Made by a program: the position numbers and the translations under genes. From positions 64,001-128,000 of the forward strand of contig CAVSZB010000008.1 in NCBI GenBank assembly GCA_963732385.1: a stretch of 64,000 bases of DNA, written 5' to 3'. Origin of the DNA: an uncultured bacterium. GTDB taxonomy: Bacteria; Krumholzibacteriota; Krumholzibacteriia; LZORAL124-64-63. Every line of letters starts with the position of its first letter. The first letter of the stretch is position 1. The notes under the pieces were generated by a model, which searched no databases, was not told the origin of the DNA, and worked only from the letters and a program-made list of their open reading frames with translations. This document shows, in pieces, positions 32,384 to 38,154 of the stretch.

Positions 32384-33184
32384 ATGAAACTGGGCCTGGA
32401 GGGCCGGGTAGCCCTAGTCACCGCCGCTTCGCGCGGTTTCGGTCGTTCGGTTGCCCTGGAATTGGCCGGAGAGGGGGCCCACGTGGCGCTGTGCGCCCGT
32501 GGGGCCGAGGATCTGGAGCGGACCCGGGCCGAAGTTCAGGCCGTGGCCAGGGACGGCGTCCGCCTGCTGGCTCGGCCGTGCGACATGACCGATGGTCCGG
32601 CCGTGGAGCGCTTCGTGGCCGAGGTCACGCGTGAACTCGGCCCGATCGACGCGCTGCTCGTGAACGCTGGCGGGCCGCCGGCCGGTGGATTTTTCACGAC
32701 CGGCCTCGATCAGTGGGAGGCGGCCTACCGGCTGAACCTCGAGAGCGCGGTGCGTCTCTGTAGTCTGGTGCTGCCCGGCATGATGGAGCGCGGTTGGGGC
32801 CGGATCGTGCAGATCACCTCCGTGGCGCAGAAACAGCCGGTAGACAACCTGGTGCTGTCCAACGTGATCCGGCCCGCGGTGCACGCCCTGACCCGCTGCC
32901 TGGCGGTGGAGGCGGCCCCGCGCGGCGTTACGGTCAACAGTGTCGCGCCAGGATTCCATCTCACGAGCGCCGTGGAGCGCCTGGTCAGGCATAAACTCGC
33001 TCAGGGAGCCGCCTCCTCCCGCGAGGAGGTTCTGGCCGCCTGGGAGCAGGAAATCCCGGCGGGCCGACTCGGTCGTGCGGAGGAACTGGCGGCCCTGATC
33101 GTCTTCCTGATGTCGGAGCGGGCCGGCTATGTGACCGGACAGTGTCTGGTGGCGGACGGGGGCTGGGTCCGATCGACGTTCTGA
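32384..33184 (+). CDS. SDR family oxidoreductase (3-oxoacyl-ACP reductase-like subgroup)
   Basis: TAASRGFG, NAGGPP, VNSVAPG, YVTGQ..DGG; lacks canonical YxxxK. Confidence 0.9.
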   Translation: MKLGLEGRVALVTAASRGFGRSVALELAGEGAHVALCARGAEDLERTRAEVQAVARDGVRLLARPCDMTDGPAVERFVAEVTRELGPIDALLVNAGGPPAGGFFTTGLDQWEAAYRLNLESAVRLCSLVLPGMMERGWGRIVQITSVAQKQPVDNLVLSNVIRPAVHALTRCLAVEAAPRGVTVNSVAPGFHLTSAVERLVRHKLAQGAASSREEVLAAWEQEIPAGRLGRAEELAALIVFLMSERAGYVTGQCLVADGGWVRSTF

Positions 33185-33198
33185 TCGATCCCGCGGAC

Positions 33199-33227
33199 TT
33201 GACGTCGGGACGAATCGAGTATATATT
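33199..33227 (+). promoter_or_regulatory. Sigma70-type promoter
   Basis: TTGACG - 17 nt - TATATT within an AT-rich patch in otherwise GC-rich DNA. Confidence 0.75.
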
Positions 33228-33277
33228 CATAGTCAAACAGTATTTAATATTTAAAACGATGCGACGGTGGTGCGCCC

Positions 33278-33481
33278 ATGCTCGACATCCTGAAACTGCT
33301 GGCCTTCGTGGCGGCCTACTTCGTGGTGATGCGCTGGCTGCTGCCGCGGCTGGGCGTGCCCACCTGAATGTCCGACAGTTGCTCGGTCGGGGACCGGGCG
33401 CAGCCGAAGAACCGGAAAGGTGACGACGATTCCGCGGCGGAGGCTGACCAGGCGAAGCCGCGATTGCCGGGAGCGAGGTGA
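33278..33481 (+). CDS. Candidate small membrane selenoprotein (67 aa; in-frame TGA at 33365-33367)
   Basis: MLDILKLLAFVAAYFVVMRWLLPRLGVPT-(TGA)-MSDSCSVG...PGAR-stop; SECIS-like hairpin downstream; stop overlaps the RBS of the next gene. Confidence 0.65.
33381..33399 (+). promoter_or_regulatory. Putative bacterial SECIS element 1
   Basis: GCTCGGTC-GGG-GACCGGGC hairpin; G-rich loop begins 21 nt after the TGA. Confidence 0.6.
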
Positions 33482-33488
33482 CCCGAAG

Positions 33489-33698
33489 ATGCCGTTGTTC
33501 GAGTTCAACTGCCGTCGCTGCGGCAGGAAGTTCGAGGAGATCCTGAGTCTGGCCGAACTTGCGGCCGGACCGCCAGCCTGTCCCGCGTGTGGTGCGGACA
33601 AGGCGGTACGGGAGTTATCGCGGTTCGCCACGGGCGGGGGCGGGGCCCCGGCCGGGGGGAGCGGCGGCTGCGGGCCGAGCGGATTTTCGTGAGGTTGA
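33489..33698 (+). CDS. FmdB family zinc-ribbon protein, probably ending in Sec-Gly (TGA 33690-33692 recoded; otherwise ends at 33692)
   Basis: MPLFEFNCRRCG..FE...CPACG; tail GGCGPSGFS-TGA-GGT-TGA; GAGGTG RBS. Confidence 0.85.
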
Positions 33699-33739: not shown

Positions 33740-33772
33740 GACGACCCCGCGCAGGCGGGGTCGTCCTTTTTT
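33740..33772 (+). terminator. Rho-independent terminator
   Basis: GACGACCCCGC-GCAG-GCGGGGTCGTC followed by CTTTTTT. Confidence 0.88.
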
Positions 33773-34691
33773 ATCCCCCCGCGCGAAGCCGCGGCAGCCG
33801 CGGCTCGCGTTCGCCGTAGTGCTTGCCGAGCCAGAGGATGAGCGCACCGAGCAGCAGCCCGGCGATGACGTCCACCACATAGTGGTAGCGGCAGTAGACC
33901 GTGGCCGCGGCCAGCAGGACGAAAAGCGTGGTCAGCCAGGGACGGCTGCGTGGGGCGATCTTCCAGCCGTACCACCACGGGATGAGCGTGGCGGCCACGT
34001 GGCTCGACGGGAAAGCGGCCCCCAGGATGGCGCCGTGCGCGTGGATGTGGCGCATGACGCGGGTGAAGATCCAGCCGTCCACCGTCACCGGTCCGGCGCG
34101 GAAGTACTTCGGGCCCCAGACCGGAAAGAAGGTGTAGAGGGTGTAGCAGACGAGCATCGTCGCGCTTAGATCCCGCATGAAGGCGCGCAGAGCGGCCCAG
34201 CGCTCAGGCGGCGCGAGACGCCGCGAGGTCATGATCAAAACGAGCACGAGCGCGCTGAAGAGGTAGTAGGAGAAGTAGGCGAACTCGAACAGTTCGTGAA
34301 GCCAGGGCCACGGCCAGCGTTGCGACCAGACCAGGCTCAACTGCACGCCGAACAGCTTCTCCTCGAGTGCGATGAACCCCGGATCGAGGGAGTGCGCGAA
34401 GTCGTGGAAGACCAGCCCGAGCTGCGCCATCTCGCTGTAGAACAACGGGAACACGCACGGCAGGTAGATCTCGCCCATCAGGCGGACCGCGCCCAGGCGG
34501 CTTCCCCTGGCCAGCGGCGGCAGGAACCAGATGGCCAGCGCCAGGCCGGCGTGCAGCGCGAGGCGCAGCCAGGGGCCGGTCGGGGGCTGCCGGGAAATGA
34601 AGGGGTAGAGTCCGCTCGCGATCAGGTAGATGACCGCCCACCGGTCGAGGTCGCGCCGCTGCAGCGTCAGCCGGGCCAGTGGCAGGCGCAT
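33771..34691 (-). CDS. PAP2-superfamily membrane protein (AUR1/IPC-synthase-like phosphotransferase or phosphatase)
   Basis: AFPSSH and HYVVD catalytic motifs, FPVWGP, multiple TMs; start overlaps upstream stop (TGATG). Confidence 0.85.
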   Translation of the reverse strand: MRLPLARLTLQRRDLDRWAVIYLIASGLYPFISRQPPTGPWLRLALHAGLALAIWFLPPLARGSRLGAVRLMGEIYLPCVFPLFYSEMAQLGLVFHDFAHSLDPGFIALEEKLFGVQLSLVWSQRWPWPWLHELFEFAYFSYYLFSALVLVLIMTSRRLAPPERWAALRAFMRDLSATMLVCYTLYTFFPVWGPKYFRAGPVTVDGWIFTRVMRHIHAHGAILGAAFPSSHVAATLIPWWYGWKIAPRSRPWLTTLFVLLAAATVYCRYHYVVDVIAGLLLGALILWLGKHYGEREPRLPRLRAGG

Positions 34692-35677
34692 CAGAGCCAC
34701 CCGTTCTCGCGGTAGAAGGCCCAGGTTTCGCGGAAGCCGCGCGTGAGATCGCGTTCGGCGCCAAAGCCGGTCGTGATGCGCAGCCGGTTCCCGTCGCAGG
34801 TCCAGGCCGGCACGGTCACGCTGGCCAGGCGCTCCGGGCGCAGGAGCGGCGCCCGGGCTGCCGCAGCCCCGGCCAGCTGTGCCGCCAGCCGCAGCGCTCC
34901 CAGCGGCACCGGCACGGCCCGCACGCGCCGTCCCACCGCTTCGCGCAGGGCGCAGGCGATGTCGTCCCAGCCGTAGGCGCAGCCGTCGTCCACCTGGAAC
35001 AGGCCGCGTGCGTGCTCGGTTTCGAGGAGCGCCACCGCCGCGGCGGCACAGTCGCGTGCATCCACCAGGGAGAGCGCGGTCAGCCCGCCACGCAGGTTCA
35101 CGGTCCAGCCGCGTCGGGCCCAGGCGAACAGCGGCAGGAAGGCGGTGTCGCGAGGGCCGTACAGGGCGGGGGGGCGCAGGATGGACCAGCGGAACGGCAG
35201 GTCGGGTGTGAGGAGCTGCTCCCCCGCCAGCTTCGATCGGCCGTAAGCGCTCACCGGCGTCGGTGCGTCATCCTCCCGGCGCGGGCGGTCAGGGCGGGAC
35301 GGTCCGCCGGCGGCCAGGCTCGAAACCAGGACGAACGCGCGCAACTGGGGGGCGGCCGCGGCGGCCGTTATCAGACGGCGAGTCGGCGTCACGTTGCCGT
35401 CGAAGTAGGCCGTCTCGTTCCGCGCGCTCACCACACCGGCGCAATGGATGACGGCGCGGGCGTCAGCGAGCAGCCGCGTGGTCCCCTCCGCGCTCTCGCC
35501 CGGCAGGACTGTGCGCACCGGTTTGCCCTGCAGCCAGCGCAGATCGCTGGTGGGGCGGACGGCCGCGTGTACCTGCCACCCGCGCGCCAGCAGCGTGTCG
35601 ACGATGTGGCTGCCGAGAAAGCCGGTGGCCCCCGTCACCACCGCGAGGGGGCGGCCGGCGTTGGGTGTCGATGTCAT
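34691..35677 (-). CDS. NAD-dependent epimerase/dehydratase (candidate ceramide reductase)
   Basis: TGATGFLG, YGRSK, RPPALYGP. Confidence 0.85.
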   Translation of the reverse strand: MTSTPNAGRPLAVVTGATGFLGSHIVDTLLARGWQVHAAVRPTSDLRWLQGKPVRTVLPGESAEGTTRLLADARAVIHCAGVVSARNETAYFDGNVTPTRRLITAAAAAPQLRAFVLVSSLAAGGPSRPDRPRREDDAPTPVSAYGRSKLAGEQLLTPDLPFRWSILRPPALYGPRDTAFLPLFAWARRGWTVNLRGGLTALSLVDARDCAAAAVALLETEHARGLFQVDDGCAYGWDDIACALREAVGRRVRAVPVPLGALRLAAQLAGAAAARAPLLRPERLASVTVPAWTCDGNRLRITTGFGAERDLTRGFRETWAFYRENGWL

Positions 35678-36801
35678 GTCAGGGGCTTGTCATAGATCCG
35701 ATAGGTGCGGTACACCCTCGCGCCCATCCCTTCGAGGATGCGGTTCATCGATCGGTTGTCCTCGAGGATCCAGGAGCACTCGCCAGCCCGGATACCCTGC
35801 CGGAAGCCGGCCTCGAAGGTGCGGAAGATCATCACCGCGTCCACGCCGCGGCCGCGGTACTCCGGCAGTACGCCCAGCAGCAGGGTGCGTGCGTAGTCGA
35901 TCCGGCGCTTCTTCAGCAGGAAGGTGAGCCAGCCCAGCGGCAGCAGATGGCCGCGCAACGGCTGTGTGGCCTGGTTGAAGTCGGGAATCGTCAGGCTGAA
36001 GCCGATCGGCTTGCCGTCCGCCTCGGCGATCAGCATGAAGTCGGGGGAGACCATCTTCTTCATGTCCTTCGCGGCGTAGGCGAACTCCGCGTCGTCCATC
36101 GGGATGAAGCCCCAGTTCTTCGACCAGGCGGCGTTGTACAGCGTCCGCACCGTGGCCGCCTCCTCGGCGAAACGGCTCATGTCCATGGGGCGGACCGTGA
36201 ACGTGGCGCCGGCCAGCAGCGGCTTCATGGCATCCTGCAGGCGGTCGGGGATGCGCCCGTCGGTCGCGTCCATCCGCCAGGCCCACAGGTCGCGTGACTT
36301 CGCCAGGCCGAACGCCGCGAACTGCCCCTCGTACCAGCGCGGGTTGTATGGCATGCCGATGACCGGTCGGCCGAAGTCGCCGTCGACGAGCAGGCCGAGG
36401 TAGTCGTGGTTGGTCGTGAAGGAGCAGGGGCCGCGCATGACGGCCATGCCGTGTTCCTTCAGCCAGGCCGCCGCGGTCTGCAGCAGTTCGCGCGCGAGCG
36501 CGGGGTCGTCGGGGCATTCGTAGAAGCCGAAGAAGCCGCTCTGCTCGCCGGTGTGCCGGTTGTGGTAGCTGTCCACGCAGGCGGCCACCCGCGCGACCGG
36601 CCGGCCGGCCTCGTCGCGGGCGACCCAGAGCGCGGTCTGGGCGTGCGTGAAGAACGGGTTGTGCCCCTGATCGAAGAAGCGGCGCAGGTCGCCGAGCAGC
36701 GGGAAGACGTGGTTGGGGTCCCCGGCGTAGATGCTGTATGGCACCTTCAGGAACGCTTCGAGGTCCCGCTTGTCCTGGACGGGGCGGATCTTGGCCGGCA
36801 T
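35674..36801 (-). CDS. GNAT-fold N-acyltransferase (candidate bacterial ceramide synthase)
   Basis: HNPFF, GFFGFYE, MPYNPRWY, AWSKNWGF, GVLPEYRGRG, SWILEDN. Confidence 0.8.
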   Translation of the reverse strand: MPAKIRPVQDKRDLEAFLKVPYSIYAGDPNHVFPLLGDLRRFFDQGHNPFFTHAQTALWVARDEAGRPVARVAACVDSYHNRHTGEQSGFFGFYECPDDPALARELLQTAAAWLKEHGMAVMRGPCSFTTNHDYLGLLVDGDFGRPVIGMPYNPRWYEGQFAAFGLAKSRDLWAWRMDATDGRIPDRLQDAMKPLLAGATFTVRPMDMSRFAEEAATVRTLYNAAWSKNWGFIPMDDAEFAYAAKDMKKMVSPDFMLIAEADGKPIGFSLTIPDFNQATQPLRGHLLPLGWLTFLLKKRRIDYARTLLLGVLPEYRGRGVDAVMIFRTFEAGFRQGIRAGECSWILEDNRSMNRILEGMGARVYRTYRIYDKPLT

Positions 36802-36875
36802 GAACGCTCCTTCGGTTGGCGGCGCGGCTCCGGTCGCGGCGTGGCGGCCCGCGGACCTCCCCGCCGACCGGGGCG

Positions 36876-38060
36876 TCAGGAGATCACGCCGAGTTCCCTG
36901 CCTACCTTGACCATCCGGTCCATGGCGAGATGGACCTGATCTTCGGTGTGGGTGGCCATGAGGCTGAGGCGGATCAGCGCGTTGCCCTTCTCGACCGCAG
37001 GAGAGATGACGGAGTTGACGAAAACCCCTTCCTCGAACAGCCGGCGGCACATCTGGAAGGCGACGACATCCTCGCCGACCACGGCCGGGATGATCGGGGT
37101 CTGCGAGGGGCCGGTGTCGAAGCCGGCCTCCTGCAGGCGTTCGAGCATGATGCGCGTGTTGCGCCACAGCGCCGCGCCGCGCCACTCCTCCTCGATCATC
37201 ACGTCGACGGCGGTCGACACCGCGGCCACCGAGGCGGGCGGCATGCTGGCCGAGAAAATCAGCGAGCGCGCCATGTGCTGGATGAAATGGACCGTTTCGG
37301 CGTCCGAGGCGATGAACCCGCCCACGGAGGCGAGCGACTTGCTGAAGGTGCCCATGATGAGGTGGACCTTGTCGGTCAGGCCGAAGTGGTTGGCGGTGCC
37401 GCGTCCCTGCGTGCCGAGCACGCCGATCCCGTGCGCGTCGTCGACCATGACGACCGCGGAGTGCTTTTCCGCCATGCGCACGATGCCGGGCAGGTCGGCG
37501 ATGTCGCCGTGCATCGAGAAGACGCCGTCCACCACGATCAGCTTGCCGTTGTCGTCGCAGGCGGCCAGGGTCTTGTCGAGGGCGACCATGTCGTTGTGCA
37601 GGTACTTGCGCGTCGTGCCGAAGGAGAGGCGGCAGCCGTCGATGATCGATGCGTGGTCCACGCGGTCGACGATCACGCTGTCGCTGCGCCCCACCAGGGA
37701 GTGGATCACGCCGAGGTTCACCATCATGCCGGTCGAGAAGACGACAGCCGCCTCCTTCCCGACGAGTCGGGCGAGTTTCTCTTCCAGTTCGACGTGGATA
37801 TCGAGGGTGCCGTTCAGGAAGCGCGAACCGGCGCAGCCGCTGCCGTACTTGTCGATGGCCCGTTTTGCGGCCTCCTTGACCCGCGGGTGGTTCGTCAGGC
37901 CGAGGTAGTTGTTGCTCCCCAGCATGATGACTTCGCGCCCGCCGATCCGGACCAGATTCTCCTGGGCGGACTCGATCACCCGGAAATAGGGGTACAGGCC
38001 GGACTTCTGCAGTTCCCTGGCCTGTTGGAAATTCCGGACTTTGTCGAGCAGGCCCATCAT
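36876..38060 (-). CDS. spt: Serine palmitoyltransferase-like alpha-oxoamine synthase (PLP)
   Basis: GLYPYFR, GSNNYLGL, GCAGSRFLNGTLDIH, DDAHG, GTFSKSLAS. Confidence 0.8.
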   Translation of the reverse strand: MMGLLDKVRNFQQARELQKSGLYPYFRVIESAQENLVRIGGREVIMLGSNNYLGLTNHPRVKEAAKRAIDKYGSGCAGSRFLNGTLDIHVELEEKLARLVGKEAAVVFSTGMMVNLGVIHSLVGRSDSVIVDRVDHASIIDGCRLSFGTTRKYLHNDMVALDKTLAACDDNGKLIVVDGVFSMHGDIADLPGIVRMAEKHSAVVMVDDAHGIGVLGTQGRGTANHFGLTDKVHLIMGTFSKSLASVGGFIASDAETVHFIQHMARSLIFSASMPPASVAAVSTAVDVMIEEEWRGAALWRNTRIMLERLQEAGFDTGPSQTPIIPAVVGEDVVAFQMCRRLFEEGVFVNSVISPAVEKGNALIRLSLMATHTEDQVHLAMDRMVKVGRELGVIS

Positions 38061-38154
38061 GTACCGCGATTCGTTGGAGTTGGCGGGGCCCAATGGTGTC
38101 AGGCACCGCCCCGGAGCGCACACAGTCCGCAAAGATAATCGCCCCGGGGCGACC

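What the first reader, a model, noticed from the sequence alone, without database searches (positions are those of the whole stretch)
33278..33481. Unannotated small membrane protein with ...LPRLGVPT-U-MSDSC (UxxxxC) motif
Not in the ORF track. It has a 29-residue N-terminus with one TM helix, then TGA, then an open frame with a Cys five residues later and a charged tail. Its final stop lies inside the GAGGTGA ribosome-binding site of the next gene, 7 nt before that ATG. The read-through version packs tightly into the operon, whereas stopping at the first TGA leaves about 120 nt unexplained. The hairpin GCTCGGTC-GGG-GACCGGGC can extend with GTTGC/GCAGC. Inference: a possibly uncharacterised selenoprotein family with a membrane-proximal Sec/Cys redox pair.
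Basis: partly seen in the sequence, partly recalled or inferred. Interest (0 to 1): 0.85.

Follow-up and report, generated by a model that had tools for sequence, protein, structure and literature searches.

The report
Forgotten tiny membrane selenoprotein family
A small unannotated gene carries an internal TGA that lines up with cysteine in relatives, so it very likely makes a membrane-anchored selenoprotein; the family was already predicted in 2008, I found no study of its function, and its neighbours suggest it likely helps cells handle reactive sulfur.

Summary
Window 33278-33481 is a 67-codon frame with one membrane helix, TGA at codon 30 and Cys35, in a genome with selA, selB, selD and tRNA-Sec. 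Sec read-through is about 93% likely. All 73 TGA loci read at codon level keep the open tail and a Cys. 102 of the 150 best protein hits have Cys in place of the TGA. 55 of 56 TGA-form genomes from two other phyla have selA; 0 of 4 Cys-form genomes do. A covarying SECIS-like hairpin follows the TGA.

The family is not new. [quoted passage not shown] It is missing from the 2026 catalogue of 119 families and matched no Pfam or NCBIfam model.

Added here: Cys orthologues, the breadth (about 190 genomes in three phyla), the SECIS covariation and the gene context (FmdB zinc ribbon, ArsR, YgaP/DUF2892, rhodanese, DUF302, thioredoxin). Best guess at function, about 0.4: a cytoplasm-facing, membrane-tethered Sec/Cys redox pair in sulfane-sulfur stress handling. 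That function is untested.

The parts
33199..33227 (+). sigma-70-like promoter TTGACG-17-TATATT, followed by an AT-rich stretch (possible repressor site, untested)
   Evidence: 1 site found against 0.1 expected in shuffles; similar hexamers seen by eye upstream of several same-family loci
33278..33481 (+). 67-codon selenoprotein ORF (U at codon 30)
33281..33349 (+). predicted single membrane helix, residues 2-24, predicted N-out/C-in
   Evidence: helix 2-24; C-side more positive than N-side in 68 of 77 homologues, less in 1
33365..33367 (+). in-frame TGA, predicted Sec30
   Evidence: aligned to TGC in 4 genome loci and to Cys in 102 of 150 protein hits
33380..33382 (+). Cys35, second residue of the U-x4-C pair
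   Evidence: invariant in alignments A1 and A3; at +5 in 69 of 73 TGA loci and 99 of 102 Cys forms
33381..33399 (+). bacterial SECIS-like hairpin; loop starts 21-23 nt after the TGA and begins with G
33475..33481 (+). final stop inside the ribosome-binding site (GAGGTGA) of the next gene
   Evidence: stop within -11..+15 nt of the FmdB start in 35 of 45 loci with FmdB nearby
33489..33692 (+). FmdB-family zinc-ribbon protein (CxxC-CxxC), likely second gene of a two-gene unit
   Evidence: TIGR02605 54.4 bits, cut-off 31.3; PF09723; directly downstream in 40 of 77 loci
33740..33765 (+). intrinsic-terminator-like hairpin with T run
   Evidence: 1 found, 0.5 expected: weak on its own

Best explanation
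The gene very likely encodes a 67-residue selenoprotein, predicted to have one membrane helix with a Sec-x4-Cys pair just inside the membrane, that likely serves as a membrane-tethered redox or sulfane-sulfur carrier in a reactive-sulfur stress unit. Shown: the reading frame, the TGA/Cys alignment, the Sec machinery, the conserved hairpin, the neighbouring genes. Inferred: SelB binds the hairpin and Sec is inserted (about 0.93); the tail faces the cytoplasm (positive-inside rule); Sec30 attacks polysulfide or persulfide sulfur at the membrane, Cys35 resolves it to a selenenyl-sulfide ring, and thioredoxin or a rhodanese/YgaP-type partner resets it. The confidence given (0.4) is for this function, not for the read-through.
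For: Read-through: 30 of 30 best loci of the own phylum read G[VI][PA]T-TGA-x4-C. All 73 TGA loci keep an open tail of 15-48 codons with exactly one Cys. 102 of 150 best profile hits have Cys at the site, 99 of them with Cys at +5. selA, selB, selD (itself with an in-frame TGA) and tRNA-Sec are in G000. selA is in 55 of 56 TGA-form genomes, 30 of 40 genomes without a hit and 0 of 4 Cys-form genomes. Hairpin: a structure taken from the own phylum holds in 33 distinct sequences of two other phyla, with 8 of 8 pairs changing on both sides and covariation 0.41 against at most 0.22 for slid controls; it beats the mean of synonymous recodings in 67 of 73 loci. Function: within 1.5 kb, ArsR, YgaP, DUF302 or rhodanese lies in 17 of 30, 18 of 30 and 4 of 17 loci of the three phyla, against 7 of 1189 windows of G000. 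DsrE, TauE, an MBL-rhodanese fusion, cysteine desulfurase/Suf genes, thioredoxin, OsmC, Usp and RND pumps also occur. ArsR-family sensors of reactive sulfur (SqrR, BigR, PigS) are described in PMC9774590 (passages).
Against: There is no experimental evidence for Sec insertion or for any activity. The neighbouring ArsR proteins score far below the BigR cut-off (44 and 53 against 155 bits) and carry a C-terminal C-x3-C rather than the SqrR/BigR cysteine pair, so sulfur sensing is not shown. In this window the only partner is FmdB; no ArsR, rhodanese or YgaP gene is adjacent. Many loci, especially in Planctomycetota (11 of 17), have none of the six counted families. The neighbour profiles were seeded from these same loci, the rhodanese seed included a YgaP-fused protein, and kin are not independent. 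2 of 4 Cys forms keep a hairpin at the same place, so the hairpin does not strictly track the TGA.
Confidence: 0.4

Rival explanations
1. The same selenoprotein binds soft metals or metalloids (Cu(I), Hg, As(III)) through Sec30, Met31 and Cys35 at the membrane and hands them to an ArsR-controlled efflux system.
For: Met follows the site in 56 of 73 TGA loci and 81 of 102 Cys forms. 51 of 102 Cys forms carry extra tail cysteines. ArsR/SmtB regulators and RND pumps are neighbours.
Against: No metal ATPase, ArsC, ArsB/Acr3 or Mer protein appeared among the neighbours scanned (a selection of flanking ORFs, not every gene). Sulfur-handling genes recur instead.
Confidence: 0.22
2. It is a general thiol-redox switch of the membrane, reduced by thioredoxin and acting on the FmdB zinc ribbon, with no special link to sulfane sulfur.
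For: FmdB is the most constant partner (46 of 77 loci within 1.5 kb) and is tightly coupled. Thioredoxin lies next to the gene in 8 of 77 loci.
Against: FmdB lies near only 1 of 17 Planctomycetota loci and follows none of the 4 Cys-form loci. No binding was tested.
Confidence: 0.25
3. The gene mainly acts as a selenium-sensing leader: only Sec read-through brings ribosomes to the FmdB ribosome-binding site.
For: The read-through stop lies within -11..+15 nt of the FmdB start in 35 of 45 loci although the tail length varies.
Against: Such spacing is ordinary in operons. Cys orthologues keep helix, motif and second Cys, which points to a function of the protein. The downstream gene differs among loci.
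Confidence: 0.06
4. The TGA is a true stop: a 29-residue membrane peptide followed by a separately started short ORF, or TGA read as Trp or Gly.
For: Databases hold the 29-residue form (13 of 19 fetched hits end at the Thr). An ATG follows directly in 56 of 73 loci. 20 of 150 hits show Trp at the site (probably TGA read under another code by gene callers, DNA not checked).
Against: The stop at this site is TGA in all 73 loci, never TAA or TAG, while the final stops are mixed. Cys forms are continuous. 17 of 73 loci have no Met. The neighbouring genes at 33184 and 33692 end in TGA, so TGA is a normal stop in this genome.
Confidence: 0.07

Closest known systems
[quoted passage not shown]
   Same: Same architecture and motif: hydrophobic N-terminus, LP(R/K)(L/M)G(V/I)xT-U-M-x3-C, charged tail. 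One deep-Sep entry shares LPRLGVPTUM with the query and has Cys at the same place (by eye). The profile built here retrieves P0164 (E 1.3e-7), which matches, by eye, a 2008 entry over its whole length except at the Sec position.
   Different: The 2008 table lists 15 sequences and 0 Cys homologues in its samples; the 2016 row lists 5 organisms. Here there are about 190 genomes with TGA forms, 102 Cys forms, a covarying SECIS and a gene context. I saw no function or context in the passages read.
Eukaryotic SELENOK/SELENOS (recalled, no call)
   Same: One membrane helix with a disordered cytosolic tail bearing Sec.
   Different: No sequence similarity was tested or is implied. Their Sec lies near the C-terminus; here it sits about 6 residues from the helix and has a Cys at +5.
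Catalogued bacterial selenoprotein families with NCBIfam models (TsoA LULAxC, TsoY, UXX-star, DG/DW/DF, dual-CXXC small protein, Sao proteins; Table 1 of PMC13188914)
   Same: Small predicted redox or metal-binding selenoproteins, some in ArsR-led neighbourhoods.
   Different: No family-level NCBIfam match for the query, for 24 aligned members or for 9 short Cys forms; no U-x4-C entry in Table 1.
BigR/SqrR/PigS reactive-sulfur regulons (PMC9774590, passages; operon contents recalled)
   Same: ArsR-family repressor with rhodanese, YgaP-like, TauE and dioxygenase-like genes nearby.
   Different: The adjacent ArsR does not reach the BigR model and has another cysteine pattern. No selenoprotein is known to me in these regulons.

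Membership tests
Bacterial selenoprotein | In-frame TGA with conserved coding sequence on both sides | tested here: met
   73 of 73 loci read at codon level
Bacterial selenoprotein | Cys at the aligned site in homologues | tested here: met
   4 genome loci with TGC; 102 of 150 protein hits
Bacterial selenoprotein | selA, selB, selD and tRNA-Sec in the genome | tested here: met
   (G000); selA in 55 of 56 TGA-form genomes of two other phyla
Bacterial selenoprotein | bSECIS: loop of 3-9 nt with G in its first two places, 16-37 nt from the UGA, stem 4-16 bp, -7.5 kcal/mol or lower (PMC13188914 section 5) | tested here: met
   window: 9 bp, loop GGG at 21 nt, -12.8 kcal/mol; covariation; not significant for the single sequence
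Bacterial selenoprotein | Sec actually incorporated | not testable with these tools
   needs 75Se labelling or mass spectrometry
'Unknown' / Geobacter lovleyi hypothetical selenoprotein family | Hydrophobic N-terminus + LPxxGxxT-U-M-x3-C + charged tail | tested here: met
   (by eye); profile hit P0164; P0001 against P0164 36% over 56 aa, pairwise E 4e-10
Families with Pfam or NCBIfam models | Score at or near a curated cut-off | tested here: not met
BigR/SqrR-type regulon | Adjacent repressor of BigR type with its cysteine pair | tested here: not met
   44 and 53 bits against a cut-off of 155; C-terminal C-x3-C
BigR/SqrR-type regulon | Induction by sulfide or persulfide | not testable with these tools
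   needs expression data
Lipoprotein (Cys forms) | Positively charged n-region and lipobox before the Cys | tested here: not met
   N-side net charge averages -0.4; a polar LPxxG segment and Thr precede the site; lipobox rule recalled

The most novel reading that the evidence does not exclude
A near-core, single-helix bacterial selenoprotein that uses a membrane-surface Sec-x4-Cys ring to capture and pass on sulfane sulfur in an ArsR/YgaP/rhodanese/FmdB stress system: a minimal bacterial counterpart of the SELENOK/SELENOS design and, to my knowledge, a first selenoprotein of reactive-sulfur homeostasis at the membrane.
Probability: 0.3. Interest if true: 0.68.

Novelty: new member of a known kind. 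Interest (0 to 1): 0.4.

Why it matters
The family has fallen out of view. It was predicted in 2008, is missing from the 2026 catalogue, matched no library model, and databases hold it cut at 29 residues or not at all. Yet it is found in about two thirds of the genomes sampled from this phylum, 28% from Acidobacteriota and 9% from Planctomycetota. A model built from these alignments would repair many annotations. At about 50-70 residues, with natural Sec and Cys versions and 'fossil' hairpins in two Cys forms, it is a simple system for testing what selenium adds at a membrane surface and how Sec-to-Cys changes happen.

Tried and rejected
A single-sequence protein search found nothing; only alignments worked. 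The genome-contig scan used a Cys pattern and could find Cys forms only; its fifth locus (L047, Sphaerisporangium) lacks the helix and the Cys at +5 and was dropped as spurious. L051 and L080 duplicate L043 and L046 and were dropped from counts. My first pair count used a wrong register and was redone. A genome-wide scan for TGA plus a similar hairpin gave 66 places, nearly all noise by eye, so a hairpin alone proves little here. No plasmid match. ESM Atlas: one unnamed cluster at 0.88, a lead only. The idea that Cys forms always lose the hairpin was rejected: 2 of 4 keep it. RNA: contigs of a relative about 91% alike in two metatranscriptome runs of one study cover 33249-33647 and 33287-33659 with no change listed at the TGA (13 differences not shown). 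This is weak, since contigs show neither strand, ends nor a single transcript. No fold search or complex prediction was run: the model is one helix plus coil. Cluster-member names could not be looked up, so it stays open whether some NCBI records already name this protein. Haft & Tolstoy 2025 (PMC12013261) is not held and was not seen.

Full report
Observation. The window holds ATG 33278, an in-frame TGA at 33365-67, TGC at 33380-82 and a final TGA at 33479-81 inside GAGGTGA, 7 nt before the ATG of an FmdB-family zinc-ribbon gene. A promoter-like site lies at 33199-33227 and a terminator-like site at 33740-65, which suggests a two-gene unit. The AlphaFold model gives one helix (2-24) and a low-confidence tail. 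The hairpin is real but, alone, no better than shuffles (z 0.16).

Sec machinery. G000 has selB, selA, selD with its own in-frame TGA and tRNA-Sec. It has one copy of the gene.

Conservation. In the own phylum 153 of 201 genomes match at E <= 0.1; the weakest of these include spurious hits. All 133 listed matches at E <= 0.001 contain a TGA. The 30 best were read at codon level and all give G[VI][PA]T-TGA-x4-C-x2-GDR. An alignment finds 44 of 151 genomes in the phylum of a Bryobacteraceae record (42 with TGA, 1 Cys, 1 weak partial) and 15 of 151 in the phylum of a Planctomycetales record (14 TGA, 1 Cys). Over the 73 TGA loci fetched, the stop at this site is always TGA, the tail is 15-48 codons, Cys is at +5 in 69, and Met follows in 56.

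Cys orthologues. Four genome loci have TGC. The profile search gives 646 clusters at E <= 0.001. Of the best 150, 102 have Cys at the site, 21 end there, 20 have Trp, 6 have other residues and 1 was not parsed. The profile carries C at that place, so the ranking favours Cys forms. The Trp and Gly cases are probably TGA read under other codes; I did not check their DNA. selA is present in 55 of 56 TGA-form genomes, in 30 of 40 listed genomes without a hit (one of them, G228, is unpublished) and in 0 of 4 Cys-form genomes, which also lack selB. These are assemblies of unknown completeness. In the own phylum 193 of 201 genomes have selA.

SECIS. In 30 own-phylum sequences a stem at columns 19-26/30-37 with loop NGA is 78% paired, against at most 40% for slid controls. 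The same structure was applied to 34 of the 43 TGA loci from the two other phyla. I left out 9 by eye, mostly for shifted spacing, which may favour the result. It is 70% paired, and 8 of 8 pairs show changes on both sides. There the amino acids differ (GSR, EDR, ESR, EFR), so the RNA stem rather than 'GDR' is what is kept. With no loci dropped, 64 of 73 have their best hairpin loop 19-27 nt after the TGA, and 67 of 73 beat the mean of synonymous recodings (-9.1 against -2.4 kcal/mol). Two of four Cys loci keep such a hairpin, which would fit recent Sec-to-Cys change (inference). The features fit the bSECIS model in PMC13188914 section 5.

What is known. Pfam has no model for the query and NCBIfam none for the query or its relatives. 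Table 1 of the 2026 review, 119 families, has no such entry. Searches for selenoprotein + UxxxxC, + Geobacter lovleyi + hypothetical protein, and selenoproteome + lovleyi found no paper by main text. The supplements tell otherwise. Dataset S1 of Zhang & Gladyshev 2008 lists the family under '#Unknown' among previously described families; its Table 2 gives 15 sequences, 9 samples and 0 Cys homologues. Peng 2016 has a row 'Unknown (Geobacter lovleyi)' with 5 organisms (name only). [quoted passage not shown] It was not found in that paper's Table S1 by my terms and is not in Table S2. So the family is predicted but orphaned.

Papers seen. PMC13188914: abstract, section 5, two of three parts of section 7, passages. 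PMC12013277: passages, supplement searches, Table S2 whole. PMC2398784: passages and Dataset S1 passages. PMC5029168: a main-text search without hits and supplement rows. PMC13326102: abstract, one section, a search of a supplement cut when stored. bioRxiv 2022.07.06.499078: abstract and outline. PMC9774590: passages. PMC12013261: not held. Unseen supplements, BSepDB and RefSeq may hold a further name.

Context and mechanism. The charge bias (C-side more positive in 68 of 77) predicts that U30 and C35 face the cytoplasm next to the membrane. FmdB follows directly in 40 of 77 loci. In 35 of 45 loci with FmdB nearby, the read-through stop lies within -11..+15 nt of its start. Within 1.5 kb, ArsR, YgaP, DUF302 or rhodanese occurs in 39 of 77 loci against 7 of 1189 windows of G000 (seeds came from these loci, and kin are not independent). 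Other neighbours include DsrE, TauE, an MBL-rhodanese fusion, Suf and cysteine desulfurase genes, thioredoxin, OsmC, Usp and RND pumps, along with many unrelated genes. This resembles reactive-sulfur regulons (and recall), but the ArsR fails the BigR model and this window has FmdB only. I therefore commit to a membrane-tethered Sec/Cys sulfane-sulfur or redox carrier at about 0.4, ahead of a general thiol switch (0.25), soft-metal binding (0.22), a true stop (0.07) and a selenium-sensing leader (0.06).

Verdict. A real and very probably recoded gene, well spotted. It is a new member of a family predicted in 2008 for which I found no functional study. The additions are its breadth, the Cys orthologues, the SECIS covariation and a testable context. 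Interest 0.4.

Noticed in passing
window 33771-38066, minus strand: Possible sphingolipid (ceramide) operon: a serine palmitoyltransferase-like gene (NF047600, 581 bits against a cut-off of 640), then an unassigned protein, an epimerase-like protein (by eye) and a PAP2_3 protein with a weak match to phosphoinositol dihydroceramide synthase. The likeness to the spt/bcerS/cerR arrangement is recalled, not tested.
   Followed up: partly
G000 C3, selD (L012): selD has a TGA in GUxxK followed by a hairpin-like stretch with GG-GGA-CC, close to the family's loop motif.
   Followed up: partly
L043:4088 and L046:1523: Cys-form genes in genomes without selA or selB still carry a strong hairpin at the SECIS position, possibly fossil SECIS elements.
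   Followed up: partly
L018, L023, L024, L026, L027, L031, L044, L046 (next to the gene): An ArsR subtype with a S/G-QA-N/C-VSKHL recognition helix and a C-terminal C-x3-C that matches no specific NCBIfam sensor model; its inducer is unknown.
   Followed up: partly
window 33228-33258: AT-rich stretch between the -10 box and the start, similar in the two same-genus loci; possible repressor site.
   Followed up: no
protein P0156: A Cys-form member fused to thioredoxin in one record; may be a frameshift artefact, since thioredoxin genes overlap the stop in several loci.
   Followed up: no
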